DNA of 63,554 bases, counting the filler, from Stramenopiles sp. TOSAG23-6 (Eukaryota): assembly GCA_900128565.1 (NCBI GenBank). It is 39 parts of 39 records of this genome, joined end to end, with 100 filler letters (N's around TTAATTAATTAA, not from the genome) between each part and the next. Parts side by side here need not be neighbours in the genome. Positions count along the whole stretch, not along the records: positions 13,154 to 14,695 come from LT638904.1; 38 more parts are not named here. One strand, given 5' to 3'. Made by a program: the position numbers and the translations under genes. Every line of letters begins with the position of its first letter. Within the stretch, counting starts at the first letter, position 1. A model generated the notes under the pieces. It had not been told where the DNA came from. It saw only the letters and a program-made list of their open reading frames with translations, and did not search any database. Positions 7,519 through 47,595 of the stretch are shown here, in pieces.

Positions 7519-8326
7519 TTGTTTTTTTTCGTACGAAATTTTGTACCTAACAAACGAAAATTGGAAAATTGGATTTTTGAAACATTATTATTACAAATGT
7601 AGTAAGAAATCATTTTCCTTACATTTTTTTTAAACATTTTCTTGTGTATTTATGTATATAATAAANGTNATGTATGATACTATCTATTTAGATGATATTT
7701 TGTTGATATATGTATGTATAATGCAATGAAAAATTAAATNTAATGTTTTTAATTTTATTTTTTTTTTGTATGAAATTTTCTTAGTAAAAAAAAAGGAAAA
7801 ATTATTTATTTTCAACTGATTTCACTTTCTTGATTCAAATATTTTTGATCTTCACATTAANAATTCATGATGGAGACTTAATTCTTTTTCAGTAAGCATA
7901 TATATTTATGGTATGTATTGANTCTTTATTTTTTNAAATCATTTAGGTTTACTTTTGTTTTTGTATATTATTATGATTCATTATTTGAGCCAATTCGCCA
8001 TCAATTGAAGCTAATTGAGATTCAATATTTCGATATGTTGTTGTTTTTTCTTGCCATAACTTTTTAATCGACTTTTGTCTCTCCACAATACCTCGTAAAA
8101 TAGTTTCATGATTTTTTGCATTGTTNNNNNNNNNNNNNNNNNNNNNNNNNNNNNNNNNNNNNNNNNNNNTTAATTAATTAANNNNNNNNNNNNNNNNNNN
8201 NNNNNNNNNNNNNNNNNNNNNNNNNGTTACGACCACCAATTGAATTCCTCGATGTCATCGTATAGTAGATTTTAGACGCGCAACATTTTACTATCATCCG
8301 TCTGTTCTTCCAATAGAAAGTTGACA

Positions 8327-9423
8327 ATGGCAGAGTCTAAAACTGAGGAATGCGAAGAAAAGATTTTTATGGCAAAGGTAAGTTAAGTCAATTGTTTATC
8401 ATTGAAATTCTGGAATTTCTTTATCTCATGGTGTGCTCTGTTGCGTCGGCTTGTACACGTAACTTGTGCATGTCATCGTAAAGTCCTACCTTCCACTCAA
8501 CTTAACTTAGCTGTGAAATAACATGTTCATTACTCATAGTTAGCTGTCTAAAATGATGCATGAGAAACTCTAATTAGAGTAGAACATTGATTCAGCGAAG
8601 TGAATGTGTTTTTTTTTGTTTGGAAGCAAATATGTGTTTTCATCGTCGTGTTGTATCTCCGTTTCTATTTGACAGTACTAACTTTCTTTCCACAAAATCA
8701 TACGAAAACTCATTTATCACCCCTCTCTATATCATCATAATATATAGTGTTAAAGAAAAAGAGCGCTTGACTACAGAAGAACGTAATCTCCTTTCTGTTG
8801 CATACAAAAACGTCGTCGGTGCCCGCCGTGCTTCTTGGCGTGTATTGCATTCCATCGAACAGAAAGAGACGGACAGAAGAGCAAACGTAGAGTCTTATCG
8901 TACAGCTGTTGAGAAGGAGCTATCTGAGATATGTGGTGAAATCCTCACTCTCATTCAAAACACTCTCATCAAACATTCTGTTGAGAGCGAGGAGCGTGTT
9001 TTCTACTACAAAATGAAAGGTGACTACCATCGTTATATGGCCGAATACATGTCAGGAGATGGCCAAAAAGATGTAACCGAAGAGGCGCGACAGTCATACA
9101 GTAATGCCATGGAAGAAGCAAAATCCCTAAGTGCGACAAATCCAATTCGTTTGGGTCTCGCTCTCAACTTTTCTGTCTTCTATTACGAAATCATGGATAA
9201 GCCAAAGAAGGCATGTCAGCTTGCCAAAGATGCTTTCGATAAAGCTGTCGGTGAGCTTGAAGAGCTAAACGAGGAAGAGTATAAAGATGCCACTTTGATC
9301 ATGCAACTTCTCCGAGATAACCTTACTTTGTGGCAGAGCGAAGCTGGTGTTGAGTCAATGCGAATTGAGGATGACGGTACCGAAGTTGCTGAAGTAGACG
9401 GTGAAGCAGACGATGACTTTTAA
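8327..9423 (+). CDS. 14-3-3 protein (canonical introns; second exon appears largely missing)
   Basis: [63 protein letters not shown]. First exon [23 protein letters not shown]. Confidence 0.95.
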
Positions 9424-9946
9424 ATATCAGACTAAATCGTTTGAAATGGGGTTGTGTGTTTGAAGTATTTTATAGATTATATCACTTCTATTCGAAACAC
9501 TTGGTTTGCGTGAATGTTGTGTTTTCCTTATAATCACACCAAGAGTGCGAGAAAATATGGGAGATTTTTTTTACTATCAGTAAAATAAAAAATAATAGAA
9601 GTTTTGACCTTTCTTTGTCACTTGTTCTTTTACTGATTGAATATGTTAGACTAAGTAAGTTCATTTAGTTTATTCCTAAGAAATGAAAACAAAATCAATT
9701 ATAAAATCTGTTGAATATAATTTGCAGATTACACAAGCTAAAATTGACCCGATTCAAGCCTTTACAATANNNNNNNNNNNNNNNNNNNNNNNNNNNNNNN
9801 NNNNNNNNNNNNNTTAATTAATTAANNNNNNNNNNNNNNNNNNNNNNNNNNNNNNNNNNNNNNNNNNNNTTTTCAATTTCGAATTTATTTTTCGTACGAA
9901 ATTTTGTACCTAACGATTTTTTTTGAAATATTTTTCCAAAACACAT

Positions 9947-13053: not shown

Positions 13054-13216
13054 NNNNNNNNNNNNNNNNNNNNNNNNNNNNNNNNNNNNNNNNNNNNTTA
13101 ATTAATTAANNNNNNNNNNNNNNNNNNNNNNNNNNNNNNNNNNNNNNNNNNNNTTTTTTTTCATACGAAATTTCGTACCTAACGATTTTTTTTTGAAATA
13201 TTTTTTCATAATCCAT

Positions 13217-14518
13217 CTGAAGATGTAATTGATTTATTATCAAGTAGTGATGAAGAGAATGACCCTGTGTCTGATTCAAATGATGAAGAGAATGACCCTG
13301 TGTCTGATTCAAATGATGAAGAGAATTCATTACAAAATCAATTTGAAGAGCGTTATGGCTCTTACAGTGAAGATAATGCTATAGAAGGAAAGTATAATAG
13401 TTCTACTGAAGAAGAAGAAGAAGAAGAAGAAGAAGATGCTACTGATGATGGATCAGATTTGGATGATATTCAGTCTGCTACTTCCTGGGGTGATATTCAA
13501 TCTCTTATTTTCCCACCAGAAAATGAAATGTTCAATAATTTTACGGATAAAGATATTGAACAAATCTGTCGTGCATTACCGCTAGACAGGAATTTAGATG
13601 AAGAAGAAATTGTAGCTTTCAACAAACGTGGGAAAATCCCAATAACACGTGAAATGATGGGATGTTTGTTAGATAATCAATGGCTTAAAGATGAAGTGAT
13701 GAATTATTTCTTGGAACTTATAGCAGCCCAATCACCTAGTCCTTCAAATCCTTCAAGTGATATCATTGGTGAAACAACAAAATCACTAAATGATACAAGC
13801 CTTCCGTCTGTATACATGTATGTTTTATTTTTTTTCAAATTCGATTTTTTTTCGTACGAAATGCTGTACCTAACGATTTTTTTTTGAAATATTTTTCCAA
13901 AATACATCCATAACACGCATTTTTATTCAAAACTTTTGGAGCATGATCAATACACGTATACAAATGTTCGTAGGTGGACACGAAAAGTAAAAGGAACAAT
14001 TTTTGCGTATGATAAAGTTATTATTCCAATTCATTTAGGAATTCACTGGGTAATGGCAGTAATGTACGTTTTCAAAATAGAATGTGTTTTTTTTCTTGGT
14101 AGAAAATTTCATACCTAACAAAACATTTTTACAAAAAAAATATTTTCCCAAAATTACATAAACTTTCGTGATAAACGATTAGAATATTATGATTCGATGG
14201 CAGCTGTAGATGCTGCTCATAAAGCAGCAGGTAAGTATTGTTTGGAACATTTACAGACTTATCTTAGAGATGAAAGTTTGCACAAAAGAAAAGTNNNNNN
14301 NNNNNNNNNNNAATGAAGAATTTGATTTTTATATTCCTACCAAAGATGAAATCCCCCAACAAGAAAATACCGTTGATTGCGGTGTGTTTGCTCTCAAATT
14401 TGCTGAATTGTGTAGTAGAGACCAAACATTATATGATTCTTTTTCTCAAGAAGATTTTCCACGTTTTAGAAGAGAAATAATGCTACAAATCCTTCAGTCA
14501 AGTGATGAAATTCCTTAA
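13217..14518 (+). CDS. SUMO protease (Ulp1/SENP, peptidase C48), 5' partial
   Basis: WLKDEVMNYF; spliced [53 protein letters not shown]. Confidence 0.95.
13818..13907 (+). mobile_element. Family intron, GT...AT
   Basis: tac at|GTATGTTTT...TCCAAAATACAT|c cat. Contains an in-frame TGA. Confidence 0.9.
14064..14159 (+). mobile_element. Family intron, GT...AT
   Basis: gta at|GTACGTTTT...CAAAATTACAT|a aac restores HWVMAVINF. Contains an in-frame TAA. Confidence 0.9.
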
Positions 14519-14795
14519 ATTATAAAGAAGCTAAAAATTTGTTTTTGTATATAATATTTTTTTTATACTATATACTATATACTGTATTACCAACTGTAAC
14601 TAATACGTGTACCACTCTTCTTACTATGCGCTCGTGTTTAAAAACATGCATCACTCTAAATCTTCAGCGACTTCTGCTAGAGTATCTCGTACCATNNNNN
14701 NNNNNNNNNNNNNNNNNNNNNNNNNNNNNNNNNNNNNNNTTAATTAATTAANNNNNNNNNNNNNNNNNNNNNNNNNNNNNNNNNNNNNNNNNNNN

Positions 14796-16336
14796 ATCAG
14801 AAACTTGTAAGCTCTTGAGATTTTCCTTTGGTGCTTTTTGTGAATCTATTTCATTATTACTTCTATTACTCCTGTTACTTCGATTAGTACTACTACCACT
14901 GTTTGATTTGCTTCTATTGCTTCTATTAGTACTATTACCACTATTTGGTTTACTTTTCCGATTGCCTGACTTCTTCTTCATGTTATTTATATTACCATAA
15001 GGATTTGGATCATTCACTTTTGCCCAAATAAATGCTTTATGTAAATTAAGTACTTCATTTCCACTAAGTCGCAACTGTCCAACATCTAGATAACGAGTGA
15101 ATATTTCACTGAGACAAACAATAGCCTTTGCACATAGTGCTTTTCTATGGTTTAATAAAATGCTGTTGAGCCAATCTACAGCGGTTGCATTTAGTTCTGG
15201 CCGAGGTTGTAATATACTTATCTTTTGGTTAGACGATGATGCAAATTTGTTTTCGTGAAAATTTTGAGGATTTCGTACAGGAACTTTACTCTGCCAATTC
15301 TTTCGCATTCGACTAGCAGAGCGGGCGCGACTAGTAAATTTTCCAGTGGAGTAAATGAGTAAGTACAGAATCTCTATATGGGATATGTGGTTGCTTTTGA
15401 ATTAGGGCTTTAGCAACACGACCAATTGCGAGTAAACTCTTATTGATACTTTGTGTCTCTCGAGCATGTATACCCTCTGCTTTAGATCTTTTTAAATTTT
15501 CACTTCCAGACAAATCAACAAAAGTTAATTGTCCTTCACGACCGGTGTCACAACTCTTAATATTAATTGTGAAAACAGAATGAGAGCGGGAACTTCGCTT
15601 GTTTAATTCTGTCTCAGCAGTTTGTCTGCGAAGAACGGATGTTTCAAGAATACTAATTATGTCTTCTGGGGTTCGTACAGGTGTTCTTGTCAAACCAGAT
15701 ACTCGCATACCGTATTCTTTATCACGATAAAGCAAAAGCTTTTTCGTCCCAGTATTAGAATAATTCGGGTCATCTCGCTTTTCGATATGCCGTTTTGGCT
15801 CGTAATGAATCCTTTGGTTTTCGCGCTTCCCCTTTTGATATTTCCCTTTTTTATTTGAGTATAACTCCTCGGCCGTTTTTGGTTGAAATCCAGATTGTGG
15901 AGATGGAGCTAGTAAGTCAGCAATTTCTTCGTTATATATTTCTAAGTGACTTACATCTATACTAAAATCTGATTTATTCGGAATATTAGGGTTTGGTGCT
16001 TTATCCTCAACTTTTAGAGTTTGAATGACACCGAATAATGTGTAAATTGAACGAGCAATGAGACCCGCATCTGGTCCCCTCAATCGCTCTGATCCTTTCA
16101 TTTTCTGACTTTCTGGCTCTGGTCCTTCCATTGTGTAAGTCTTTCCGGCGCCAGTCTGTCCATATGCAATAATCGTACATTTAACACCTTCCAATGACTG
16201 AAGAACAAGTGGGGCAATTAGTTCTCTAAAGATCTCCTCTTGATGAGCGTGTTGTTCAAACACTCGATCAAATGTATAACGTTTGCATTCATCGTAGTCT
16301 GGGTGTTCAACAATCACGTTACTATTTTGGCAGGTA
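14796..16336 (-). CDS. Kinesin motor protein, partial; frame break near 15345
   Basis: AYGQTGAGKTYTM, HLEIYNE, NKRSSRSH, FVDLSGSE, HIPYRDSVLT. Confidence 0.9.
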
Positions 16337-16964: not shown

Positions 16965-17886
16965 ATGCGGGAAAAGTATATCCGAAAAAAGATGCTTCAA
17001 AAGTCCAAATTCTTTAGTCGAACTTTAGCTTGGACAGTGTGTATTACTGTAGTAATTTCATTTGTAGTATCTTTTTGGAAAACTTCGATTAATACTTCAC
17101 CCATATCACTATTTAGTATATTTTCTGGTCATGATGGTTCAGGAATTGCTTCAAATAATGATAGACGACTATACCTTGAAAACGAAGTCAATTCAGCCAT
17201 TCGTACTTCTGGCGTCGGTAGTACTTTGCATAAGAGTGCATCTTGTGATTTAGGTACATTCTTGTTTTCAGTTCATGAGTATGATAAAGGCATTGATCAT
17301 TTTGAGGTTGCTGGTGTTGAATGCGCAGGGGTAGAGTTTGCCTCCAGAATGGCTGGACATTTTTATGATAATTACGGAAGACGTAATCCTGTTACTTCAT
17401 TTGTAAAAGGGCTTTCAAATAGTGACAAGGTGTTGTCCTTTTTGTCAATGTTTCATCAAATTTCACAAAAAACACCAATTCCCAATGAAGCTTGGGATGC
17501 TTTACACTCAGGAATTTCTGCAGACGCTGTAGGTATTCGAAGTTGTTTATTACTTGCTGGACTTTTTCAACACAGTACGTTTTTAATTTTTTATCTAATT
17601 TTTTTTTTTGGTTTCATACGAAATTTTGTACCTAACGATTTTTTTTAAAATTTTTTTAAAATATTTTTTTCATTTCAATTTCGAATGTATTGTTTTTTTT
17701 TATAGTAAATTTTGTACCTAACGATTTTAATTTTTGAAATATTTTTCATGATGAATGTTCTCATCGGATAACTTCTTTATCAAGTGTTTTGCTACATGAT
17801 ATTGAAAGATGTGTACTCATTGTAAAAGCTCCATTTAATCCGACGTCTGATGTATTTGAAGCCGGTATTGCTTTAGTAGAATCTAA
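16965..17886 (+). CDS. Type II membrane protein, unknown function, partial
   Basis: N-terminal TM segment; the frame continues across family intron 17575-17756. Confidence 0.6.
17575..17756 (+). mobile_element. Family intron with duplicated core, GT...AT
   Basis: cac a|GTACGTTTT...ATGAAT|gt tct; two AAATTTTGTACCTAAC copies. Confidence 0.7.
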
Positions 17887-19711: not shown

Positions 19712-20471
19712 CAATTTGGTTAATACCTTTCCCAAGAACATTAAGTCTTCTTGCTGAAGATAAGACACCTTGGAGAGTAATCAACTTCACAGATGATGTT
19801 TCGGAGTATTTATTTTCTGTATTTATAGCGTTGTCTTGAACTTTTGATTCATCTTCAAATATATGAAAAAGCAATAATTTGATTTGTTCGTTGTCTAAAA
19901 ATGCCATATATAACTCAAGCTCATCTAATAAGTCAATGTCATTTACACCGCTATTCATTAAACCACCTATCGATTTATTGCCCTCAAATCGAAGATTAGT
20001 GATATAATGACATTTGCTATATGCTCGTAAACGAAATACTTTTTTACCACAATTTCTACACTTCTTTGATTTCATTTTGTATTCTTGAGGTGAAAATGTA
20101 ACTAAACTTCAAAAAGATTCACATAATTGATATCTAAGAGTCTGAAGAAATGCAACCATACCAGATCTTTCAATATGATTATCTCGTAGGTCTATCTCTC
20201 GAAATAACTGACCTTCTCGGAGAGAATCTGCTAGCGCAATAGCTTGATTGTTGGTAATACCTCGTTTCCTCAAATTTAGAGACTTTAAAACTCTAGCTTC
20301 CTTTTCAGATTTTTCAACTACATTCAAAACAATTGGAATTGGCGATACATTCAAACTAGCGGATATATCTATATAATGTGCACTATATCGACCTACATGA
20401 TGCGATTCTAAAGGAGGTACTTTCGGTCGCTTTCGAAATGATTTAACTTTAAACATAGAAAATGTGCACAA
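19712..20471 (-). CDS. Leucine-rich-repeat protein (RI-like), fragmentary
   Basis: LKSLNLRKRGITNNQAIALADSL...IDLRDNHI; ITNLRFEGN. Split across two ORFs. Confidence 0.6.
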
Positions 20472-20754
20472 GGAATATTTTCAAAACAGACTTTATGAAA
20501 ATGATCTATCTCAGTCAGATATAAATAGATCTGAAGATAATGCGTGTAGAAGAAGAGCATTTGCAAAATTCAAGATTTAGATTCGATTCGAGAAAGAGCT
20601 TTTCGCGATCTAGATCGCCCCGGGGGATTTCGTGTTTTTGTTCATCATATTATGCATGCGAGATCCACGAATTCGAGAGATCTTCAATTTTTTACTTGCT
20701 ATCCTTGCTATCATAATATATTTAGGAAATTGTTATTGTTTTGCAAGGCCTCAA

Positions 20755-21247
20755 ATGGATAATTTAAAAGATGTTGATGGACTATCTACTGATTATATGT
20801 CCCCCAAACAAGGTAACTATACACCTAGTGCAAAAGACCTAGAACATTTTCCTTCTGCACATGGCGCTGATTTTATCCCGTCGTCAAGTACAGATGAAGA
20901 CTTCAAATCAAATGAAGCTGTTGGAGAGCTCCGAAGCAGTAAAGTCGGGCCGCAAGATACAACACTTTTGGATGAACGATTAAATAGACTTCGTGATAGC
21001 ACACGTTCTACAAATGTTGTAGATCAACAATCGCCGTCATCAGTGGCAAAACGTATTTCTAATAGTGTTCAGAAGAGCGACAAGGTTGAAGTATTAAAAA
21101 CTCGTCTTACAGAAGTAGAAGCCATGCTGATAGAACAACAAAATAAATGGGCTAAAGAAAAGAGTGATTTGATTGAAGCGAATCGTGCTACAGTATCAAA
21201 TACAAAGGATCAAACTCGTTCTGCTGTTGAAAGTGCATTACAAGCGG
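20755..21247 (+). CDS. Coiled-coil protein N-terminus, unknown function
   Basis: Open frame to the contig end with heptad-rich sequence. Confidence 0.55.
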
Positions 21248-21354
21248 NNNNNNNNNNNNNNNNNNNNNNNNNNNNNNNNNNNNNNNNNNNNTTAATTAAT
21301 TAANNNNNNNNNNNNNNNNNNNNNNNNNNNNNNNNNNNNNNNNNNNNTATACTT

Positions 21355-22836
21355 GTGCAGCTGTTGAAAGATGAATGTGGTATGAAGACGCAAACTGTAT
21401 TTAGCTCCGTATTTCCTATTTATAGTGACACACAACCTGTCTTTGCTTTATTAGTGTTTTTGTTATGTAAAAATGTACGACGTGCACTTTTATTATGTGC
21501 TATAGCTAATGTGTGTACAGTTTTGTTACTTTTAGTCGCCATCGCAGTGCCCGGTCGACTGTTCGGTTCATGTTTTACTGTTTATGTTTCAGAATGCACC
21601 GCAGCTTGTGCCATGCTTCAAGTGTTTGTGCTACCTGCAATAATATGCTCAATTTCAGACGCTCAACATTATAAGACATATATTGGTGTTGGTAGAGCTA
21701 CGGGGATGTTGAGTTCTATTTTATCATCCTTATTTGGAAAGCTTTTATCAGAATGGTTTGCTTGTCGAAAAATGTATTTAACTACAGTTTGTTGTAGTTT
21801 AGGTTCTTCTGTATTCAGTTTAATTTTTGTTCTTTTAATCTTCACTCGTACGATACAGTATAATGATAATAATGATAATAATGATAATCATTATAATCAT
21901 TATAATAATTATTATAGTGATAATAATAATGATCAAAATAATAATGATCAAAATAATCAAAGAATACAAAATCGTTGTATTATTTTAAAAAGATTGTTGA
22001 ATTTTTTACATGTAAAACACCGAATTCTTTTTTGGCTAATTTTGAATTTTATGGTAAGAGGTGTTCATACTTTAGTTATGATTGACTGGCAAAGTATGAA
22101 CAGTTTCATATTTGAGAATAGCAAACGTTATAACCCTAACCCTAGTGTTAAACACTCTACTATTTTTGACGTACAAAACTGTTCAAAGTCTTCTAGTTAT
22201 TTTGTATTTCAATCTTGTATGTATGCAGCAGCAGCTATAACAATGTTCATCTATGCATTACGTACAACAATATCATGTTTTTCATGTTGTTTTCGTTGTT
22301 TTAGGGTTAGGGTTAGAAAAAATAATAATTTTGGTGGTATGACATTCATTCTGTTAGGGTTAGGGTTTTGTTTGTTAGGCATTGGTTTGATATCAAGTAT
22401 TACTACATATACTACAAAACTATATACATTTAGTACACTTTTAATAATATACCATTGCATTGCTGAAATAAGTATAGTTATTTGTTCAGCATTTATTGGA
22501 CAAGACATAAATTCCTTACATATGAACAAACCTGTCAATATTGAAAATTTGGAAAATTTGGAAAATTTTTCATCCTTGAATGTAAATGTACAAAATTNNN
22601 NNNNNNNNNNNNNNNNNNNNNNNNNNNNNNNNNNNNNNNNNNNNNNTATTGAATATATACCTTCACAATTGGAAATTTTTGTTTTCTCTGGATTTCTCTC
22701 CATGATGACACAATTTATGGTCCAATGTATAGCAGGTTTGTTCCATTTGGATATCAGTGAAAAATTTTATATATATTCTTCATGTATTTTTATTATTGCT
22801 ATTTTTTCTGGTACATTTTATTATAGACAAAAATAA
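21355..22836 (+). CDS. MFS transporter, SLC19 (folate/thiamine carrier)-like
   Basis: About 11 hydrophobic segments. VFPIYSDTQPVFALLVFLL resembles the RFC family N-terminus. Confidence 0.55.
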   Translation: MQLLKDECGMKTQTVFSSVFPIYSDTQPVFALLVFLLCKNVRRALLLCAIANVCTVLLLLVAIAVPGRLFGSCFTVYVSECTAACAMLQVFVLPAIICSISDAQHYKTYIGVGRATGMLSSILSSLFGKLLSEWFACRKMYLTTVCCSLGSSVFSLIFVLLIFTRTIQYNDNNDNNDNHYNHYNNYYSDNNNDQNNNDQNNQRIQNRCIILKRLLNFLHVKHRILFWLILNFMVRGVHTLVMIDWQSMNSFIFENSKRYNPNPSVKHSTIFDVQNCSKSSSYFVFQSCMYAAAAITMFIYALRTTISCFSCCFRCFRVRVRKNNNFGGMTFILLGLGFCLLGIGLISSITTYTTKLYTFSTLLIIYHCIAEISIVICSAFIGQDINSLHMNKPVNIENLENLENFSSLNVNVQNXXXXXXXXXXXXXXXXXIEYIPSQLEIFVFSGFLSMMTQFMVQCIAGLFHLDISEKFYIYSSCIFIIAIFSGTFYYRQK

Positions 22837-22983
22837 TAAAAATAATAAAAATAATAAAAATAATAAAAATAATAAAAATAATANNNNNNNNNNNNNNNNN
22901 NNNNNNNNNNNNNNNNNNNNNNNNNNNTTAATTAATTAANNNNNNNNNNNNNNNNNNNNNNNNNNNNNNNNNNNNNNNNNNNN

Positions 22984-23502
22984 TCCTATGGAGCCATACC
23001 CAGAAATTAGATCCCTATCGTCAAAAGGATGAATAAAGACGCGACCGTTTGTAGTGTGCCTTTTCACGGCAGGTAATAATTCTATACTAGGAACAAGTTC
23101 AACGTCACTTCCAAGGGCTTTAATTTTAGCTACTCGGTCAGCAGGAACAGTATTAGGCATACACACGGTTGCTTTAACACCTAACTGACCACAGAGAAAT
23201 GCAAATGTGCGACCTGCATTACCAGCTGACATTGTTACTGCGCCATGTTTTCGAATACGCTCTTCATTAACTCTAAATGAATTACACATGCCCCGAATTT
23301 TAAAACTGCCAGAAAACTGTAGAGATTCCATTTTAAGAAACACTGGTATTTCCTTCTTATTAGCATCAACGTTTAATAATGGAACACTGAAACCTGAAAG
23401 AAGAGGAGTGCGACGGACTAAATTGGACTTTGATATATATTCATTAGCTGTATATATACTTTCAAGAGATATTGTTTCAGATAATGCTTTGTTCGATGAC
23501 AT
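22984..23502 (-). CDS. PLP-dependent serine/threonine dehydratase family, 3' truncated
   Basis: RTPL, FLKMESLQFSGSFKIRG, SAGNAG, FIHPFDD. Confidence 0.92.
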
Positions 23503-23804
23503 CGTGCGTTCTAACGAATCAATAAGTGTGTAAGGTTTTATTGATTTGACTCATTTGAGATTATATATTATGATCTCAGACTCAGATCCGAGCCAAGGTA
23601 ATTACCTTTGCTATTATTCATGACCGTAGTGACGTATGACGTCATCTATAAAAATAGCGGTACTAGTCAAGTCAAGTGGAGCTGTCAAAATCGGTGCAAT
23701 CGCAATCATATAAGATTCATTCTCCAAAAAAACAGTCTTATTCTTTGCAATTTCTTGATTATTCCTTAAATTACCACCACAATCACGTGTTCCTTTTATA
23801 GTCT

Positions 23805-24455
23805 ATGGTAGATACATGTGTGAATAATCCACCTATAGTTGATGGTGGTGATCAAAGTATAGGGGTGTCACCTTGTTCGGACTCTGTTTCAAAAAAATCT
23901 CAGCCATCTTCATCAGAAGAATCTAGAGTCCAGGTCATTGTTCGAGTTCGTCCTTTATTACCCCTGGAGCTTGCTCATAACGCACGACATTGTCTAAAGG
24001 TATCAGAAGGCCGTCACGAAATAGTAATAGAAGGTGCAAGAAGTGGTACATATACATATGATGGTGTAGTATCAGCTTCGCGCTCACAGCAGTACATGTA
24101 CGAAACAGTAGCTCAGCCATTAGTTGCTGACGTACTCAAGGGCTACAATGCAACTATAATGGCATATGGGCAAACTGGTTCAGGTAAAACCTATTCTGTT
24201 GGTAGTACTGCTGGCAGCGTTGGTGGAATTACAGTGAGTGCTGGTATTATTCCCCGTTTTATGCAAGAACTCTTTAACTCTCTTTCAAAGGAAACTACGA
24301 GTAATACAGTGGCTTCCGCTACTTTTATTGAAATATACAACGAAGAACTTCGAGATCTGCTTAAAGATCGTACGGTATCCCAACCTTCAGACGTTTGGGG
24401 TAATCATTCTTCATCTCAATCAAAATCTTTGCGAATTGTTGAAAACTCAAATCAT
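23805..24455 (+). CDS. Kinesin (kinesin-4-like) motor N-terminus
   Basis: VIVRVRPLL, GYNATIMAYGQTGSGKTY, GIIPR, FIEIYNEELRDLL. Ends at a family donor (24456). Confidence 0.92.
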
Positions 24456-24617
24456 GTAACTTTTTTCATTTCAATTTCAATTTTTTTTTTTTTTTTTGAA
24501 AATCCAATTTTTTCGTANNNNNNNNNNNNNNNNNNNNNNNNNNNNNNNNNNNNNNNNNNNNTTAATTAATTAANNNNNNNNNNNNNNNNNNNNNNNNNNN
24601 NNNNNNNNNNNNNNNNN

Positions 24618-26002
24618 TCTTTATTATCTTCCCCTTTAGTCACAGCTCTAGAGGGAGCCATTGGTGTTGCTGTTGTTCGGTCATTTCTTAGACATAAATG
24701 TTCATACGAAGCTCTACAATTTCTCCGATGTTCTCCTCCTCAATTGAATACGTCTGCTGAAAAAGAAATGAAAATTGTAGCCACGTTGAGCTGTGATTTA
24801 TGGCAAGAAGCATTAGTCGAACAACGGCGTATTCTTTCTGCGACATCTTCTGCTCTATTATCTAAACCAGGTCGAGCTTCAACTGATACAAATACGAAAA
24901 TGGAATGTAATAGACTTCGCGAGCGTTTATTATATTTGTTATTTACTTGGTTTTGGGACAAAAGGGACATGGATAAACTTACGCAGTATATGATTCTATG
25001 GAGAGCGAAAATATGTCTGAAATGGAAAACTGTCAGAGTAGACAACCTCAAGCATTAAGTCTTCTTATAGGATTTCTTTTACTACAAAATCGTATAGGGG
25101 AAGCGTTGTGGCTCCATGAAGACCATATTAGACGACATCCAGAAATTAGTTCAGCACCTGAAGTTTCTGCTCGTCATGCATTACTTGAAGGGTATTGCAG
25201 AACATTACCTGAAGCACATTGTAAATCTATGAAACCAGAAGCTCTATCGCGAAGATTTTGTAGTCACCGTCTTACAAGTGACGCAAAGCGTCAAGATGAA
25301 AATGATTCTAAAGTAAATGATGAAAATAGTAATGAAGATGTAAATAAGTATCATTGTTTCAAACAAACTCCAGTCCAGAATCGTCATACTGTTGGAAGTG
25401 ATACTAACAATTCTTCACATACTCTTTCTGGTAAAAGTCATCTCACAATCGCAAAATCTAGATTAATAAATACAGGTTATTCACCAGGACAAGTATCTCT
25501 CGGGCAATCTCCCCTTGTCCACCGTAGTACAGTTACGAACAAATCGTGTACTATACCTTCAACACCTGGTATACAATCTTGTGATGTACGCGAAGGTTTT
25601 CGTCTAGATTCCCATACAATGCCATCACAACAACTTCGACATTTTGCAACACCGTTTAGTAACACACAAACAACAAAAAGTGCTACACAAATGTCTCAAT
25701 TACGCATGACTCCTTCTTCTTCTCGACTTCCACTTGATACAAATAATAAAATCAACAACACTACATATGAACATCGAGAAGGATTGAACTGGAAAAAAAA
25801 GAATTTGACTCGACAACCACCTGCGGGAGTAGGATTATCTTTTGGTCATTTAGGTGGAAAAAATAATTTTGATGATACAGATATGAATTTTGGGGGGAGA
25901 TCTATTGGTCGTGATAGTTCACTCACTGTAGATACACCTCTTCATAATATGGAGAGAGAAAAAGGAAAAAATAATAGATCTGTTCGTTTTGTAGAAAGTT
26001 AA
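24618..26002 (+). CDS. Probable ELYS-domain nucleoporin, partial, frame change near 24990
   Basis: EALQFLR..L..DLWQEAL..QR and LLIGFLLLQNRIGEAL resemble the ELYS domain, followed by a disordered tail. Confidence 0.45.
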
Positions 26003-26476
26003 TTTTATTATAAAATCTGGAGTCATTTCACAAAGTCTTTTATATGAGAAATAAATAAATTGACTGATTTGAATATCTCTGACTGGAGATTTAGATTGAT
26101 CTTCACGCCAGTCTCCAGCTAAATATCAATATTATAAATATTTTATCATCANNNNNNNNNNNNNNNNNNNNNNNNNNNNNNNNNNNNNNNNNNNNTTAAT
26201 TAATTAANNNNNNNNNNNNNNNNNNNNNNNNNNNNNNNNNNNNNNNNNNNNAAATGTCGACCATCAAACATTACTCTGACGAAATCAATATTATGATTTG
26301 TTCGTACGGCAATTTTTCGTCTCAGAGATAAAACAGATTCATGACCGTGAAGATCTAATTCAAATGGTTTTAACTTTTCAGATGAGTTGCCACGTGTAGA
26401 ATTAGGATACTGGTGTTTTGGAATTGGGCGAATGCGACGATGTAAACTGGGATAAATTAACTGGGGGGGAGTCTTA

Positions 26477-27785
26477 TCATGGGACGATGTATGCCTTGCA
26501 GATTGTTGATTTTTTACTGATGCCAGCAGAAGGTACTACCGAACAAGCTCTTTTTAAAAATCTTTGTTGAGCAGCGTTATTTGTCGTTTTCAATTTCTCG
26601 TAAATAGAAAGTAAAACATTTGTAGGACTATAATCAGGTTTCTTATCATTCCCCCCAACGTCCACATTAGAATCTGTCACTATATCTTTTGTAAGTAATT
26701 TTGCACCTGTGGGACAAGTTGAATGTTTACTGTTTAAAACTAAATACCACAAAGCATCCAGTCCAACTATTGAATCAAGCTGATCAACTTCAAGAATTTT
26801 TCCCAAATGGCTCAAAATATTTTTTGGTTCATTCGATAATCTAGATAGATTTGTCGTATTCTTAATTTGAGCTGGTTGACGAGACATTACAATCGCATTA
26901 CGTTCATGATTGATAGCGAGAAAATACACACAAAAACAACGCCAAACTGCAGCAGTATCACGTAAACTACTTTTTAGTATTGGCTTATTACTCAAAAGAT
27001 CAGAAAAAATCTTCTGGCGTGTGACAGAGGTAAATACTGTACACACATTATTTTCATTATCATCAGTATTACCAGAATTATCATCTATACAAACTGATGT
27101 CAACCAATCTAAATAAATTTTTCTTTCTTCTGAAGATGACAAAGTATCCCAAAGAATTTTTACACGAGCAAATGATAACTCCATACCACGAGAATTGCCG
27201 TACATAAATCGTAGTAATTCAAGTCGCTGTTTAATACTATTTGCATTGGTCAGTTTTCCACTCGCCCATAATTGAACATTTCCACTATGTCCATTGGAGA
27301 GTTTATTATCTGTCTTTCTTCGGTGAGATGAACGCTCCCAAGAACGGGATGATCGTGAGTTTCTTATTGGTGTTGCTGGAGGGGGGGGTCGCTTGTGGAA
27401 AGCACACAATTCTTCAAATAGAATATCAAGTAACGGAGTAGTATTGGCTAGTTTTGTGACTTCGTATTCAATTTCATCTTCATGAGTAAGCACTATGAAA
27501 CATAGTAAACCTACAGCACGGATAACTCATTGACTACATTATTTCCATTATTCGGAGCAACAGAATCTCCATGATGATTTGATCCATTCATTCGTGAAGA
27601 ATCACGAGATCGTTTTACTACTGCAATGCACTTTTCTGTGAAATAATTTCGAAACGATTTTCCTTCTTTTAGTCTCAAACCTTCATCAAATACACGAATT
27701 ACATCTGGATTCGAAGATTTTGCAAATGATTGTGAATTTTCCTGTAACTCCCACAATAATTGAAGAAGTGCAGCAACAGCAGCCG
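26477..27785 (-). CDS. USP9/24/34-like deubiquitinase N-terminal helical region, fragmentary
   Basis: IKQRLELLRF..LSFARVKILWDTL; IVGLDALWYLVL. Confidence 0.6.
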
Positions 27786-27885
27786 NNNNNNNNNNNNNNN
27801 NNNNNNNNNNNNNNNNNNNNNNNNNNNNNTTAATTAATTAANNNNNNNNNNNNNNNNNNNNNNNNNNNNNNNNNNNNNNNNNNNN

Positions 27886-28035
27886 CCTTGATAATTGCTT
27901 GTCTAAAATTGGATGTCTATAGGTTTTCACTGGACGTTGCTTTACTACTACTGGGACACCAAGCAACGTTGTTGTATGTATTATGGCTTCAGCACCTTGT
28001 GAAAGAAGTTGCCATGAAGATGGCACAGATGTCAT
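27886..28035 (-). CDS. TP53RK: Bud32/PRPK (KEOPS kinase) N-terminus
   Basis: QGAEA...VVKQRPVKTYRHPILD. Confidence 0.88.
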
Positions 28036-28297
28036 GCTATGCTAGATATATTTATATATTGCCTACTATCAATTGATTAATTACCAGATTAGTGTATTAT
28101 ACTTGGTCAAAGTGGAGGAAGTGGAGATGAGCATAAAATAAGAGAAGAAGTCGAAAAATGACACGTGTTCCGGGAGTCAGCTCAGCGAGAGTGCGAGACA
28201 AGTGTTTCATCAGCACGTAGTCGTATTATTTCAGTCTATATTATCATCACTCATAAAGCCCTGCGAGATTTGATTCATCGTCACTCGTGGCATAACG

Positions 28298-29418
28298 ATG
28301 GATGATCTTGATTTATTCGGCGCCTTTGATGATGATACCACTCCATCAATTTCTTCTGGTAAGCGTAGTTTATCTAATGGCAGTGAGCAACCAGCAAAAC
28401 GTGCAAAAGCTGTGGGTGCTTCGACTCCAGATGCCTCAGTAAAAGCTGCCCTCGCTTTGGCCATGTCACAACGAGAGTCTTCGTCTCGTGACTTAGGTAC
28501 ATCTAATGTCGCTGAAAGTTCTATAAACGCTGATTCAAAAGATAAAGATAGCAAATGCGGTTCCTATGAGGCTCAGGCATTAGCTCGTGAGTCAAACGAA
28601 GACGCTGAAAAAATCCTTGCAAAAGGTGGAGTTGTGAAAGGTGGCGCTGGTACGTCATCTAAAAATTGTATACACGAAGTTGAACTTCCGGAGAACTACC
28701 CTCAGACAAAGAGTGAAGTTCTTGCTGAGACACAAACCCCTCCTACTCCATTGATTCACAAATATGGCTTTGAACTAGATCCATTTCATAAGCATTCAGT
28801 TGCTTGTATTGAAAAAGGCCATTCTGTTCTTGTGGCAGCTCACACATCTGCTGGTAAAACGGCAGTCGCGGAGTATGCAATCAAACGTGCTCTTTTAAAT
28901 GGTGCCACTGTGATATATACATCACCAATTAAAGCTTTGTCTAATCAAAAGTATCGTGATTTGTACGAAACATTTGATAAAGATGTCGGTCTAATGACTG
29001 GTGACGTCACTATCAACCCTGGGGCCTCATGCCTAGTTATGACGACAGAAATTTTACGTTCTATCCTGTGCAGATGTTCCGAAATTATGCGCGAGGTTGC
29101 ATGGGTAATTTATGATGAGGTACATTATATGCGCGACAAAGAACGTGGTGTTGTATGGGAAGAAAGTATGATCATGTTACCACACAAAGTACGTTTTGTA
29201 TTTCTTTCTGCGACCATTCCTAATTCACCTCAATTTGCCTCATGGATAGCTAAAGTGCATGATCAACCATGTCATGTTGTATACACTGAATATCGTCCAA
29301 CACCACTTGTACATTACATGTTTCCATCTGGTGGCGATGGTTTGCATTTAGTTGTAGATGAAAATGGTAAATTTCGTGAAAAGAATTTTCACAAAGCAGT
29401 GCGAAAAATAGAACGCTG
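28298..29418 (+). CDS. MTR4: MTR4 DExH RNA helicase, 3' truncated
   Basis: [59 protein letters not shown]. Confidence 0.95.
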
Positions 29419-32683: not shown

Positions 32684-32860
32684 NNNNNNNNNNNNNNNNN
32701 NNNNNNNNNNNNNNNNNNNNNNNNNNNTTAATTAATTAANNNNNNNNNNNNNNNNNNNNNNNNNNNNNNNNNNNNNNNNNNNNAAAAAATTTGTTAGGTA
32801 CAAAATTTCGTATGAAAAATAAATTCGATTTTTTTGTTTAAAAAAAAAAATAAAACATAC

Positions 32861-34260
32861 ATTATACGGTTTCTGAGGCAAGTAAAATACACCTGATGAA
32901 AGTCCATGACTATTATTGTTGTTAAATGCACCATCGCCAATATTTGTAATTGGTTTTGTAATCGAACCTCCAAGTGGAATTGGCCAGAGTGAACCTAAAC
33001 ATCTAAATATTGAAGATTTTCCTGAACCATTACATCCTGTCAAAAGCATGTTTGTGCCATGCTCAATAGAAAAGGTAAGATCTTTTACAAGTAATACTCC
33101 AGTTGGTGTAAAAACTTGAACATTATCAAATGCAATACGGTTTTGATTACTTTTTATTAGGTTAGGGTTAGGGTTAGGGTTAGGGTTGTGTGTCTGAATA
33201 TTTTTTCCATTGGATTCATTTTGGAACAATAATTTTGAATTTGATGACATTTGAGGATTAGGGTTAGGGTTCGCATTTTCATGAGCTGCTCGACACTTCA
33301 AATTTTGTAATGTATCAAATAAATCAGTGAGTCGTTGAGCTGGGCCTTTCATTGCATGTATTGTGAAAATATATATTTTTTTTTGATTAAGAAAAACAAT
33401 TTATTGGGTACAAAATTTTCATATTTTCATAGTAAAAAAAAATAAAATTCATATTATACACAAAAAATATTTTTTTTTTTTTTTTTTTTTTGGTTGTTGG
33501 TTAGGTATGAAATTTCGTATGAAAAAAAAAATTAAATATATTTTATACACGTACATGAAGTTGACGCAAAACTTTGACAATAATTCCCTGAGCTGACATG
33601 GCTCTAATAAAGTATTCTGTAATAAAACGAACTCGTGAGAAAAGTTCTCCAGTGTCTGACACAGTGTTGCCATTTCTATGTAATACCTCCAAATATTGGC
33701 GTTTTGCAACTGTCGATGTTGGTGAAATAAACCGACCGATAATATATTGTGAAAAATATTTTTGTTTTGTAAAATTTGTTAGGTATGGAATTTTTATAAA
33801 AAAAAAAATAAATTCGAAATTGAAAAAAATAAAAGATACATCACAGCTTGAGCAAAACTATAGCTACCGTATTCAAATAAAGCAGAGGTAATACATTGAT
33901 ACATGTATTATGAAAAAAATATTTCAAAAAACTTCGTTAGGTACAAAATTTCGTATGAAAAAAAATAAAAAATAAAAAAAAATAAAACATACCTTGTTAT
34001 TTTTTCTACAAAGTCATTACAATATTTTAGAAATATTTGCCATAAATTATCTAGAATATATTTTGGAAAAATATTTCAAAAAAAAAAATTTTGAAAATTT
34101 GTTAGGTACAAAATTTCGTACGAAAAAAAAATTCATACAAAAAAAAATTTAAAAAAAAAAAAAAAAAAACATACATGCATAATCCAATTATTATGACAAT
34201 GTGAGACTGACCGTAGAATATGAAGCATATATGTTTTTGTATCACTTGGTGAAAGTGGTG
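32861..34260 (-). CDS. ABCD (peroxisomal-type) ABC transporter, internal exons
   Basis: IAFDNVQVFTPTG..LLTGCNGSGKSSIFRCLGSLWP..FYLPQKPY. Six family introns or intron ends in 1.5 kb. Confidence 0.88.
33356..33554 (-). mobile_element. Family intron, GT...AT
   Basis: ctt cat|GTACGTG...CACAATACAT|gca atg gives VLRQLH-AMKGPAQRL. Confidence 0.8.
33742..33839 (-). mobile_element. Family intron, GT...AT
   Basis: gtg at|GTATCTTTT...CACAATATAT|t atc. Confidence 0.8.
33903..33992 (-). mobile_element. Family intron, GT...AT
   Basis: aca ag|GTATGTTTT...CATAATACAT|g tat. Confidence 0.8.
34056..34174 (-). mobile_element. Family intron, GT...AT
   Basis: tgc at|GTATGTTTT...CCAAAATATAT|t cta. Confidence 0.75.
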
Positions 34261-34841
34261 ATGTATTTTGAAAAAATATTTCAAAAAAAATTCTAAAAAA
34301 TTTGTTAGGTACAAANNNNNNNNNNNNNNNNNNNNNNNNNNNNNNNNNNNNNNNNNNNNTTAATTAATTAANNNNNNNNNNNNNNNNNNNNNNNNNNNNN
34401 NNNNNNNNNNNNNNNGTAAAGTATATTTATTTATATATATGAAAGAAAAAATTGGGAAAAAGAAAAAAAAGTAGGAGAGTAATTCTCTTAGGATTGAGTT
34501 TATTTAATCTTAATAATAAACAATGAGGTCCGCCAGAATTGTATTGTTGTATATATATATTTATTTATAGTTATTGTTGAGAAGTTATGTTTCATTATAT
34601 TTATGTATAGTTATTGTTGAGAAGTTATGTTTCATTAGAATATTGTAGTTTCTATTGTTGTTCTTTATAATAAAAATGGGCATATTACAGTATGTGATGA
34701 ATGCCCTTCAGCCGGACTCCTGCGGAGAGCTTGTAAATAAAAATGTGACCCTGACCCTCCCAATGGTAAAGTAAAACTAATGAAAATTCAATAAAACGTT
34801 TATTTTTTTGATTTTTTTGATTTTAATCCGAGGAAAATATT

Positions 34842-47453: not shown

Positions 47454-47506
47454 AACCCGCACTGTCTGATTGGAAGTCAGATTATCTACCAATTAATAAT
47501 ACCCGC
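47454..47506 (-). tRNA. trnG: Mitochondrial tRNA-Gly(UCC), 3' truncated
   Basis: Anticodon arm TCTGA-CTTCCAA-TCAGA. Confidence 0.85.
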
Positions 47507-47510
47507 AATT

Positions 47511-47582
47511 AAGCCAAGGACGGGCTCGAACCGTCTTCAAAAGATTTGCAATCTCTTACATTACCAATTATGCTACTTGACC
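47511..47582 (-). tRNA. trnC: Mitochondrial tRNA-Cys(GCA)
   Basis: Cloverleaf, TTGCAAA anticodon loop, GGTTCGA T-loop. Confidence 0.9.
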
Positions 47583-47595
47583 TTTATTTGATTTT

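What the first reader, a model, noticed from the sequence alone, without database searches (positions are those of the whole stretch)
13801..14200. Two AT-ending introns inside the SENP catalytic domain
Both copies (13818-13907 and 14064-14159) contain in-frame stops. Excision gives [13 protein letters not shown] and [20 protein letters not shown], the standard C48 protease motifs. The first copy contains no AG at all, so a canonical intron cannot explain it.
Basis: partly seen in the sequence, partly recalled or inferred. Interest (0 to 1): 0.85.

Follow-up and report, generated by a model that had tools for sequence, protein, structure and literature searches.

The report
Short introns ending in AT, not AG
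Two roughly 90-base introns that start with GT but end with AT interrupt a SUMO-protease gene; they belong to a repeated intron family spread through this marine eukaryote's genome, much like the odd introns already described in Fritillaria sea squirts.

Summary
13818-13907 (90 nt) and 14064-14159 (96 nt) each carry an in-frame stop. Removing them joins the exons exactly as Pfam Peptidase_C48 and human SENP1 require. Intron 1 contains no AG.

They are not isolated. The window is 39 unlinked, size-sorted scaffolds of about 1.5 kb, and 20 of them carry the same intron type. Its parts are a GTAYGTTTT start, a TACCTAAC branch-site-like block, a T-rich tract and a 3' block CAnAATAyAT. Of 23 hand-picked complete copies, 23 start with GTA. 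Nineteen end in AT, 2 in GT, 1 in AG and 1 in AC, and position -3 is a pyrimidine in all 23. In 19 of 20 clear cases the flanking reading frames agree. In a second gene, an ABCD transporter, three such junctions lie inside a gap-free alignment to a homologue.

RNA support is partial. One polyA-RNA contig lacks intron 1, but so does a DNA contig from another sample.

My best reading is U2-type spliceosomal introns of an introner-like family with a YAT 3' splice site. The closest known case is Fritillariid larvaceans, where 3'AT is the commonest intron end (PMC13326754). I could not identify the organism, so this is either that known case or a new lineage.

The parts
13154..13216 (+). 3' part of a third family intron, cut by the start of the scaffold. 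It has TACCTAAC at 13176-13183 and ends ..AATCCAT.
   Evidence: the scaffold is 13154-14695. PolyA-RNA contig X3#10 fits the exon only from 13214 on and leaves the genomic sequence there (table 8). This is a weak hint of a junction.
13217..13817 (+). Internal exon holding an acidic low-complexity linker and the N-terminal part of the C48 protease domain. It ends ..LPSVY plus two bases (AT) of a split codon.
   Evidence: Frame 1 is open. There is a weak SENP1 match, E 0.045-0.29. Pfam finds nothing for this exon alone.
13818..13907 (+). Intron 1 of the finding: 90 nt, GTATGTTTT start, ATACAT end, no AG, 22% G+C. The 6 nt ATACAT also ends the upstream exon.
   Evidence: RNA contig X7#23 and DNA contig X1#2 both join 13811 to 13902, skipping 90 nt in the same register within the 6-nt repeat.
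13867..13874 (+). TACCTAAC, the branch-site-like block of intron 1. The presumed branch A lies 34 nt from the 3' end.
   Evidence: That it is the branch point is inferred from its likeness to the yeast TACTAAC / yUnAy consensus (recalled), not shown.
13908..14063 (+). Exon carrying [20 protein letters not shown], the region of the catalytic His.
   Evidence: Pfam C48 positions 33-101 and SENP1 E 6.6e-08. The catalytic role of the His is recalled from knowledge of the family.
14064..14159 (+). Intron 2 of the finding: 96 nt, GTACGTTTT start, TTACAT end. It is a more diverged family copy.
   Evidence: best identity to another copy 0.78, median 0.67. Its first 85 nt also stand in DNA contig X1#2 from another sample.
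14112..14119 (+). TACCTAAC block of intron 2. The presumed branch A lies 41 nt from the 3' end.
14160..14294 (+). Exon carrying (I)[13 protein letters not shown].., the region of the catalytic Asp.
   Evidence: Pfam C48 positions 104-145, E 0.12. No PDB match on its own.
14295..14311 (.). A run of 17 N inside the coding sequence. It is not an intron.
   Evidence: DNA contig X1#7 spans 14184-14354 with 10 letters fewer, so 7 real bases stand here, which keeps the frame (tables 4 and 8).
14312..14518 (+). Last coding part (..[15 protein letters not shown].., the catalytic Cys region) and the TAA stop at 14516-14518.
   Evidence: Pfam C48 positions 152-209, E 4.5e-11.

Best explanation
Both stretches are true spliceosomal introns of a repeated, dispersed (introner-like) intron family. 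The pre-mRNA is cut at a normal U2-type 5' splice site (GTATGT or GTACGT). The branch probably forms at the A of TACCTAAC. After a T-rich tract of about 30-46 nt, the second step uses a YAT 3' site (CAT or TAT) instead of YAG, at a fixed place in a conserved block CAnAATAyAT. So the organism's major spliceosome, or its 3'-site factors such as U2AF, accepts U in place of G at the last intron base.

Shown: exact excision is required by protein homology at five junctions in two genes. Sense orientation and reading-frame agreement hold across the family. An intron-less form of intron 1 exists in a polyA-RNA library.

Inferred: the type of spliceosome, the branch point, and how the 3' site is chosen.

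The family probably spread as a mobile element. Intron 1, which is close to the family consensus, is absent from the same locus in a DNA contig from another sample, while the diverged intron 2 is present there.
For: Junction exactness. For SENP, Pfam profile positions run 33-101 | 104-145, supported by the SENP1 alignments. For the ABCD gene on the minus strand, joining exons at introns 33992-33903, 33839-33742 and 33554-33356 (GT...ACAT, GT...ATAT, GT...ACAT; 1, 0 and 0 AG inside) gives a product that aligns to P0121 residues 279-498. Identity is 47% over 270 columns, with no gap at these three junctions. A fourth junction (34174-34056) lies at the edge of the alignment.

Family statistics. 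Of 23 curated copies, 23 start GTA and 23 have T at the sixth intron base; the fifth base is G in 19. At the 3' end, -1 is T in 21, -2 is A in 21 and -3 is C or T in 23. The ends are AT 19, GT 2, AG 1, AC 1. Frames agree in 19 of 20 clear cases against 1 in 3 expected by chance. The one miss, 33839-33742, is confirmed by homology. Intron lengths modulo 3 are spread, 9/8/5 among the 22 candidates auto-detected, several with imperfect 3' ends.

Orientation. The longer flanking ORF is on the element's own strand for 34 of the 51 TACCTAAC sites, on the opposite strand for 3, and tied for 14. Selection of this kind acts on RNA, not on DNA excision.

RNA. PolyA run X7 gave one contig, which joins 13811 to 13902 with 172 and 95 nt on the two sides and 1 and 2 mismatches. 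The two polyA runs laid 9 and 1 contigs in all and almost nothing on the intron element, while DNA run X1 laid 4968 contigs with summed depth of about 1e5 on it. The tool warns that such depths are not copy numbers.

Precedent. A U2-type spliceosome removing 3'AT introns in bulk is published for Fritillaria (PMC13326754, sections read).
Against: The same intron-1-less join stands in X1, which is typed 'DNA?'. It shares the C>T change at 13953 with the RNA contig, so that contig may come from an allele that never had intron 1 rather than from splicing.

No RNA contig covers junction 2. Only contigs could be laid, not raw reads.

No snRNA or splicing-factor gene lies in the window and no whole genome is held, so the type of spliceosome is untested.

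AT occurs several times in the last 22 nt of each intron, so the dinucleotide alone cannot define the site.

No spliced protein longer than 90 aa containing exon 2 is in the 5.8-billion-protein collection.
Confidence: 0.72

Rival explanations
1. The family is removed by a minor (U12-type) spliceosome, whose 3' end choice is known to be loose, possibly with co-evolved snRNAs as in Physarum.
For: GT-AT made up 17% of the non-canonical U12-type introns in Physarum, and a transposon origin was proposed there (10.1101/2020.10.12.336362, passages). Here the 5' site is conserved out to the ninth intron base (GTAYGTTTT; 2 of 23 copies read GTATCTTTT). The branch block is long and conserved, and the terminal dinucleotide varies (AT, GT, AG, AC).
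Against: The fifth and sixth intron bases are G and T (19/23 and 23/23) where the U12 consensus has CC. TACCTAAC is not TTCCTTRAC. The presumed branch A lies 30-46 nt from the 3' end in the 17 copies with one CTAAC near the 3' end, whereas U12-type introns need about 10-20 nt (recalled; the Physarum paper gives 9-12). GTATGT and GTACGT are classic U2-type sites (recalled).
Confidence: 0.08
2. These two introns are AT-AC introns: the boundaries lie 2 nt to the left, at 13816-13905 and 14062-14157.
For: Both upstream exons end in AT, so the product is identical. AT-AC is an accepted pair, because A at the first base and C at the last are isosteric with G and G (PMC13326754, section 30). Sixteen of 23 family copies allow this register (my count).
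Against: Seven of 23 copies have no AT before the GT, and 4 of 23 do not end in AT, so the register fails for them. One of these, 33992-33903 (AAG|GT...ACAT|G), is confirmed by homology. In this register the 5' site would read ATGTAT, which fits neither the U1/U6 nor the U11 consensus (recalled).
Confidence: 0.06
3. The elements are removed other than by the spliceosome. Either they are cut out of DNA (precise transposon or IES-like excision), or they leave the RNA by a Euglena-type nonconventional route guided by pairing of the intron ends.
For: A DNA contig lacks intron 1 precisely. The ends form a short palindrome, (C)ATGTAT...ATACAT(G). In 4 of 5 folded copies the minimum-energy structure pairs the two ends.
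Against: The fold z-scores are -1.69 to +0.08, so not significant. The strong sense-strand bias (34 against 3) and the conserved GT, branch block and T-tract are what a spliceosome needs, not a transposase. Bulk DNA in X1 is full of the element. The boundaries are not TA...TA as in Paramecium IESs: that register breaks the frame of intron 2 (read). Euglenid and diplonemid nonconventional introns lack conserved GT ends (abstracts).
Confidence: 0.05
4. The insertions are not removed at all: these are dead genes hit by a repeat, or assembly artefacts.
For: The assembly is very fragmented (39 scaffolds of about 1.5 kb). Scaffold ends hold a family block in 24 of 98 cases against 135 of 1664 internal windows, so the repeat does disturb assembly.
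Against: Exons around 23 copies keep long open frames that agree in phase. Intron 2 is confirmed in an independent DNA sample. No alternative letter reaching 10% is reported at the last intron bases in X1 or X4 (table 3). A genome with this many broken conserved genes would not be viable (inference).
Confidence: 0.03

Closest known systems
Non-canonical introns of Fritillariid larvaceans (Fritillaria borealis, F. pellucida), removed by the U2-type spliceosome
   Same: 3'AT is the most frequent intron end there (44% of F. pellucida introns, 34% of F. borealis). A YAY triplet forms the last three intron bases and often stands just before the 5' site. 3'AT introns keep a uridine-rich tract. An origin from introner or MITE transposons is proposed. 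The animals are marine plankton (PMC13326754, sections 4, 21, 22 and 30; review PMC11282704, passages). Here the last three bases are YAY in 20 of 23 copies and the triplet before the GT is YAY in 9 of 23 (my counts).
   Different: In F. borealis the main classes begin with AG (AG/AC, AG/AT) and only 5% are GT/AG. Here all 23 copies begin with GT. The text I read does not give the 5' ends of the F. pellucida 3'AT introns, nor any family consensus such as TACCTAAC; the figures and supplements were not visible. I could not tell whether the window is from such an animal.
Introner elements (Micromonas, Aureococcus and many aquatic eukaryotes)
   Same: Many similar short introns in unrelated genes, all in sense orientation, with short inverted ends and insertion polymorphism (PMC12130899 passages; PMC11282704 passages).
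   Different: Classic introners use canonical GT-AG and show clear target-site duplications. The PNAS 2025 authors list only AG and AC as expected 3' sites. Here the 3' AT belongs to the element (it is present even when the exon does not end in AT), and no clean duplication was found.
Amoebophrya non-canonical introns and introners
   Same: A marine organism with repeated introns that have inverted repeats at their ends and 3-5 nt direct repeats over the boundaries (PMC7789003 passages).
   Different: There, no dinucleotide signature stands out and the inverted repeats are 8-20 nt. Here GT...YAT is a firm signature and the palindrome is only 6-7 nt.
Non-canonical U12-type introns of Physarum polycephalum
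   Same: GT-AT termini occur, and a transposon origin with inverted ends is proposed.
   Different: Those carry RTATCYTT 5' sites and a branch motif 9-12 nt from the 3' end, and GT-AT is a small minority. Here the 5' site looks U2-type and the branch block lies 30-46 nt from the end.
Euglenid and diplonemid nonconventional introns
   Same: Non-AG ends, and intron ends that can pair (abstracts; review).
   Different: They lack conserved GT ends and a polypyrimidine tract, and they leave as circles. Here a GT, a branch block and a T-tract are present.

Membership tests
U2-type (major) spliceosomal intron | 5' splice site GTRNGT-like, complementary to U1 and U6 | tested here: met
   GTA in 23/23 copies, fifth base G in 19/23, sixth base T in 23/23. 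Intron 1 reads GTATGT and intron 2 GTACGT.
U2-type (major) spliceosomal intron | Branch site (yUnAy / TACTAAC-like) followed by a pyrimidine tract | tested here: met
   TACCTAAC occurs 51 times against 0.95 expected. It is followed by a T-rich tract of 30-46 nt before the 3' end. Use as the branch point is not shown.
U2-type (major) spliceosomal intron | 3' splice site YAG | tested here: not met
   One of 23 copies ends in AG and 19 end in AT. Position -3 is a pyrimidine in 23/23 and -2 is A in 21/23. Intron 1 holds no AG.
U2-type (major) spliceosomal intron | Removed from the mRNA | tested here: inconclusive
   PolyA-RNA contig X7#23 lacks intron 1, but a DNA contig (X1#2) lacks it too. There is no read evidence for junction 2.
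U12-type (minor) intron | 5' site RTATCCTT and branch site TTCCTTRAC 10-20 nt from the 3' end | tested here: not met
   The consensus is GTAYGTTTT (2/23 copies read GTATCTTTT). The block is TACCTAAC, and its presumed branch A lies 30-46 nt from the end.
U12-type (minor) intron | U11, U12, U4atac and U6atac snRNAs present in the genome | not testable with these tools
   No genome is held. Rfam finds only 5 tRNAs in the window.
Introner / MITE-derived intron family | Many related copies in unrelated genes | tested here: met
   The motif is in 20 of 39 unlinked scaffolds. There are 23 curated complete copies. Among the 17 compared, each copy's median identity to the others is 0.59-0.77 and its best 0.67-0.86.
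Introner / MITE-derived intron family | Terminal inverted repeats and target-site duplication | tested here: inconclusive
   There is only a 6-7 nt palindrome, (C)ATGTAT..ATACAT(G). The exon ends in AT in 16/23 copies, but the 3' AT stays when the exon lacks it, and all four non-AT-ending copies still have the exon AT.
Introner / MITE-derived intron family | Presence/absence polymorphism or an empty site | tested here: met
   DNA contig X1#2 lacks intron 1 precisely and keeps intron 2. This is one locus in one sample, and the run's type is a guess ('DNA?').
Introner / MITE-derived intron family | An autonomous partner (transposase) with matching ends | tested here: not met
   No transposase or reverse-transcriptase domain was found in the 58 ORFs or exons scanned against Pfam. 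Only 63 kb was seen.
Fritillariid-type non-canonical introns | 3'AT frequent, with YAY as the last three intron bases and often before the 5' site | tested here: met
   The last three bases are YAY in 20/23 copies and the exon triplet before the GT is YAY in 9/23 (my counts). The published signature is in PMC13326754, section 21.
Fritillariid-type non-canonical introns | The host is a Fritillariid larvacean with duplicated or chimeric U2AF | not testable with these tools
   The lineage is unresolved. There is no U2AF gene in the window.
Ciliate IES | TA...TA boundaries and removal from somatic DNA | tested here: not met
   A TA-TA register breaks the frame of intron 2. The element is abundant in bulk DNA. 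The standard stop codons appear to be in use, with long ORFs.
Peptidase C48 (Ulp1/SENP), the host gene | Domain match above Pfam's cut-off | tested here: met
   Exon 2 scores 36.7 bits and the last part 43.4 bits against a cut-off of 20.7. SENP1 is the best PDB match.

The most novel reading that the evidence does not exclude
The window is not from a larvacean but from an uncultured marine protist. That protist has evolved, independently of Fritillaria, a major spliceosome that routinely uses a YAU 3' splice site set by an extended 3' block. The trigger would be a still-mobile introner family present in perhaps tens of thousands of copies, with young copies polymorphic in the sea. That would be a second, independent natural experiment in re-specifying the 3' splice site.
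Probability: 0.38. Interest if true: 0.85.

Novelty: new member of a known kind. Interest (0 to 1): 0.6.

Why it matters
Nearly all eukaryotic introns end in AG, and the last G is read directly in the second step of splicing. Genomes that break this rule in bulk show how far the spliceosome can bend. So far the well-studied bulk case for 3'AT is one family of tunicates.

If this record is one of those animals, the value is modest. It adds a concrete consensus for a GT/AT intron family, a polymorphic young copy, and a first hint from environmental RNA.

If it is another lineage, the relaxation of the AG rule has arisen more than once together with introner invasions. That would support the idea that transposon-born introns drive changes in the spliceosome.

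In practice, gene finders that allow only GT-AG will break most genes of this organism.

Tried and rejected

A spliced SENP protein: a search with exon 2 for proteins of 91-2000 aa found none.

Scans of JGI metagenome contigs for a 34-nt piece of exon 2 and for the 22-nt branch block each gave 0 hits. Viral contigs also gave 0. I draw nothing about distribution from this.

Read laying could be run only once, and on contigs. Parts without cover (for example, no RNA over 14038-14500 beyond repeat matches) say nothing. The small shares of runs X3-X19 were not used to name a habitat.

Lineage was not resolved. The 14-3-3 search gave 100% identity only to an unnamed protein, with named proteins at 65% or less, and that scaffold has no family intron, so it may not even be the same organism. 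ABCD relatives are unnamed, and the named ones (choanoflagellates, a diplonemid, Chloropicon) reach only about 29% over the long alignment. The atlas taxa were mixed. The tyrosinase exon matches molluscan hemocyanin and bacterial tyrosinases alike. Cluster look-ups gave no organism names.

A hairpin in the block CGTACGAAATTTTGTAC was considered. Copies vary without compensating changes (read), so I dropped it.

A 4-bp CATG or 2-bp AT target duplication was considered and not upheld.

My first automatic 3'-end finder was too loose, giving 150 'ends'. Its 60-nt frame test did not discriminate (24 of 30 passes at offset 0 against 10-17 of 30 at other offsets). I replaced it with the curated set and the longest-ORF test.

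Literature: I found no paper on a genome-wide GT-AT family outside tunicates and Physarum. The searches were 23 papers held the terms, 21 listed; 377 papers, 15 listed, none on introns; 7 papers. I judged these from titles and abstract starts only. Henriet et al. 2019 is not held, and supplements are closed, so Supplementary Fig. S1 and Fig. 2E of PMC13326754, which may show the F. pellucida classes, were not seen.

Full report
WHAT THE WINDOW IS. It is not one locus. Thirty-eight linkers (N run, TTAATTAATTAA, N run) cut it into 39 scaffolds of 1546 down to 1515 nt, sorted by size. Neighbouring pieces are therefore unlinked samples of a fragmented assembly. G+C is 22-39% in 2-kb windows. No whole genome is held. 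The finding lies in scaffold 13154-14695.

THE OBSERVATION. 13818-13907 (90 nt) runs GTATGTTTT...ATACAT, and 14064-14159 (96 nt) runs GTACGTTTT...TTACAT. In the exon frame each has one stop codon. Intron 1 has no AG. Intron 2 has two, both upstream of its TACCTAAC block. Pfam places exon 13909-14061 on Peptidase_C48 positions 33-101, exon 14161-14295 on 104-145 starting at its second residue (E 0.12, weak alone), and 14312-14515 on 152-209. The split codon and the first residue fill positions 102-103, so junction 2 is exact. Exon 2 aligns end to end with human SENP1 (E 6.6e-08). Exon 1 is only weakly SENP1-like (E about 0.05), but the spacing from LPS to the N of the NT.F..KL motif equals that in SENP1, so junction 1 is exact too. 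Exon 3 alone finds nothing in the PDB. The apparent frame change at the 17-N run (14295-14311) is not an intron: a DNA contig from another sample has 7 bases there, which keeps the frame.

A FAMILY, NOT TWO ODDITIES. TACCTAAC occurs 51 times against 0.95 expected. The 22-nt 3' end of intron 1 has 23 matches at up to 3 mismatches against 0.02 expected. The motif is present in 20 of the 39 scaffolds. From the listings I picked by eye 23 copies with both ends inside a scaffold. The other sites were cut by N runs or scaffold ends, lacked a clear end, or were tandem or composite.

In these 23 copies:
- The 5' end is GTA in 23, followed by T or C (14/9), G (19) and TTTT.
- The last bases are a pyrimidine at -3 (23), A at -2 (21) and T at -1 (21).
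- The ends are AT 19, GT 2, AG 1, AC 1.
- Positions -9, -7 and -5 are invariant, giving the block CAnAATAyAT.
- The presumed branch A lies 30-46 nt from the end in the 17 copies with one CTAAC near the 3' end.
- Ten of 23 contain no AG.
- Copies are not near-identical. Among the 17 compared, each copy's median identity to the others is 0.59-0.77 and its best 0.67-0.86. Conserved blocks are separated by variable T/A runs.
- Scaffold ends hold a family block in 24 of 98 cases against 8% of internal windows, so the repeat breaks the assembly.

ARE THEY REALLY EXCISED AT THESE ENDS? Three lines of evidence bear on this.

(1) Reading frame. I took the longest open frame on each side. The two agree with excision from GT to the conserved end in 19 of 20 clear cases, where 1 in 3 is expected by chance. 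Of the three unclear cases, one agrees and two do not by this crude rule. One of those two (34174-34056), and also the single clear miss (33839-33742), belong to the ABCD gene tested next.

(2) Homology in a second gene. On scaffold 32784-34315 (minus strand) I joined five exons at four family introns. The product aligns to P0121 (1281 aa, unnamed) residues 279-498 with 47% identity. There is no gap at the junctions after residues 49, 70 and 133. The first junction lies at the edge of the alignment. These introns end in ATAT, ACAT, ATAT and ACAT. Three of the four hold no AG, one of them in 199 nt. In 33992-33903 the exon ends AAG, so an AT-AC register is impossible there.

(3) Orientation. 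The longer flanking ORF lies on the element's own strand at 34 sites, on the opposite strand at 3, and is tied at 14, out of 51.

Only the GT...YAT register is allowed in all 23 copies. A shift of -1 or -2 fails in 7 copies or more, and a shift of +1 fails in 5 (read).

RNA AND DNA FROM OTHER SAMPLES (contigs only; one call allowed). A polyA metatranscriptome contig (X7#23, 267 nt) covers 13640-13811 and 13902-13996. It lacks 90 nt in a register equivalent to 13818-13907, given the 6-nt repeat ATACAT. However, contig X1#2 from a run typed 'DNA?' shows the same join, shares the C>T change at 13953, and runs on through the first 85 nt of intron 2.

I read this as an insertion polymorphism. The consensus-like intron 1 is young and the diverged intron 2 is fixed. 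Precise loss of intron 1 would look the same.

Three softer points:
- The two polyA runs laid 9 and 1 contigs and almost nothing on the element, while X1 laid 4968 contigs with summed depth near 1e5 on it. The tool warns that such sums are not copy numbers.
- PolyA contig X3#10 leaves the genomic sequence exactly at the 3' end of the third intron (13214-13217).
- No alternative letter reaching 10% is reported at the last intron bases.

Junction 2 has no RNA evidence.

MECHANISM. Apart from its last base, the anatomy is that of a U2-type intron: a yeast-like 5' site, a CTAAC branch motif, a T-tract, and a pyrimidine and an A at -3 and -2. I therefore favour the major spliceosome with a relaxed or re-specified 3' site (confidence 0.72). 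Since AT occurs several times near the end, the conserved block probably fixes the site. That last point is inference.

The ends can pair: exon AU plus GUAU with AUACAU. The minimum-energy fold does this in 4 of 5 copies, but the z-scores are not significant. The U12-type, AT-AC, non-spliceosomal and artefact readings are weighed in the Rival explanations section. A canonical GTAAGT...TACTAAC...TATAG intron exists on the 14-3-3 scaffold, but that scaffold has no family copy and may belong to another organism.

COMPARISON WITH WHAT IS KNOWN. My searches for GT-AT families first turned up only rare U12-type cases in Physarum and nothing for GU-AU.

A later search found Soo et al. 2026 (PMC13326754; I read the abstract and sections 4, 21, 22 and 30, and saw neither figures nor supplements). 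It reports for Fritillariid larvaceans:
- 3'AT is the commonest intron end: 44% of F. pellucida introns and 34% of F. borealis introns.
- A YAY triplet ends the intron and often precedes the 5' site.
- 3'AT introns keep a U-rich tract.
- Larvaceans lack the minor spliceosome.
- The U2-type machinery removes all intron classes.
- Duplicated U2AF subunits are implicated.
- An introner origin is discussed.

The signature here (YAY at the end in 20 of 23 copies and before the GT in 9 of 23) fits this well. It differs from F. borealis in keeping GT at the 5' end. The text I could read does not say what the 5' ends are in F. pellucida.

WHICH ORGANISM? Unresolved. One scaffold in the record (47454-48977) is a mitochondrial fragment. 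Its relatives sit on unnamed marine contigs of 35-41 kb, a size that suits protists rather than animals (recalled). It may, however, be prey or a contaminant. I put roughly even odds on a Fritillariid against another lineage.

VERDICT. I file it as a new member of a known kind, bulk non-AG (YAT) introns of introner type. Interest is 0.6, and it would rise to about 0.85 if the host proves not to be a larvacean.

Noticed in passing
whole window; linkers at 1591, 3236... 61984: The record is an artificial chain of 39 scaffolds (1546 down to 1515 nt, sorted by length) joined by N44-TTAATTAATTAA-N44. Neighbouring genes are therefore not neighbours in the genome.
   Followed up: yes
47454-48977: This is a mitochondrial-type fragment. 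It holds a nad4/NuoM piece (47949-48680, minus strand, Proton_antipo_M, E 8e-45) next to five tightly packed tRNA genes (Cys, Pro, Tyr, Arg, Glu; 47510-47909). The best bacterial identity is 50% or less, while unnamed marine relatives reach 72-90% on contigs of about 35-41 kb. It may be the host's mitochondrion or that of another organism.
   Followed up: partly
8226-9769 (14-3-3 scaffold): Exon 1 (8329-8379, ends ..IFMAK|GTAAGT) and the main exon (from 8748, after TACTAAC...TATAG) are present. The roughly 18 codons between them, which relatives have and whose last 8 residues the 100%-identical protein P0001 also carries, are nowhere in the window. Only TTAGCTG after a CATAG looks like their start. 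Unexplained; it could be a misassembly, a deletion or another allele.
   Followed up: partly
33162-33185 (minus-strand ABCD exon): A telomere-like (CCCTAA)4 run lies in the coding frame and reads NPNPNPNP. It sits inside a roughly 60-residue insertion that the homologues P0121 and P0135 lack.
   Followed up: no
15334-16336 (minus): The kinesin motor domain (Pfam positions 29-289 of 327) stops after ..IPYRDSVLTHLL and runs into a stop codon. There is no recognisable splice site and no continuation in the next frame.
   Followed up: no
45481-45312 (minus); 46818-46916; 17575-17760; 33554-33356 (minus); 59202-59343; 59444-59588: These are longer, composite introns made of two partial family units in tandem, with two branch-like blocks. 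The conserved 3' end still agrees with the reading frame.
   Followed up: partly
60424-61939: A beta-ketoacyl synthase N-terminal domain (60380-61066, plus strand) and an acyltransferase domain (60999-61991, minus strand) lie on opposite strands of one 1.5-kb scaffold, with an N gap between them. This is probably a scaffolding error in a FAS/PKS gene.
   Followed up: no
scaffolds 19712-29418: Six scaffolds in a row have no family motif, and some have higher G+C, up to 0.39. Together with the mitochondrial piece, this suggests the record may mix DNA of more than one organism.
   Followed up: no
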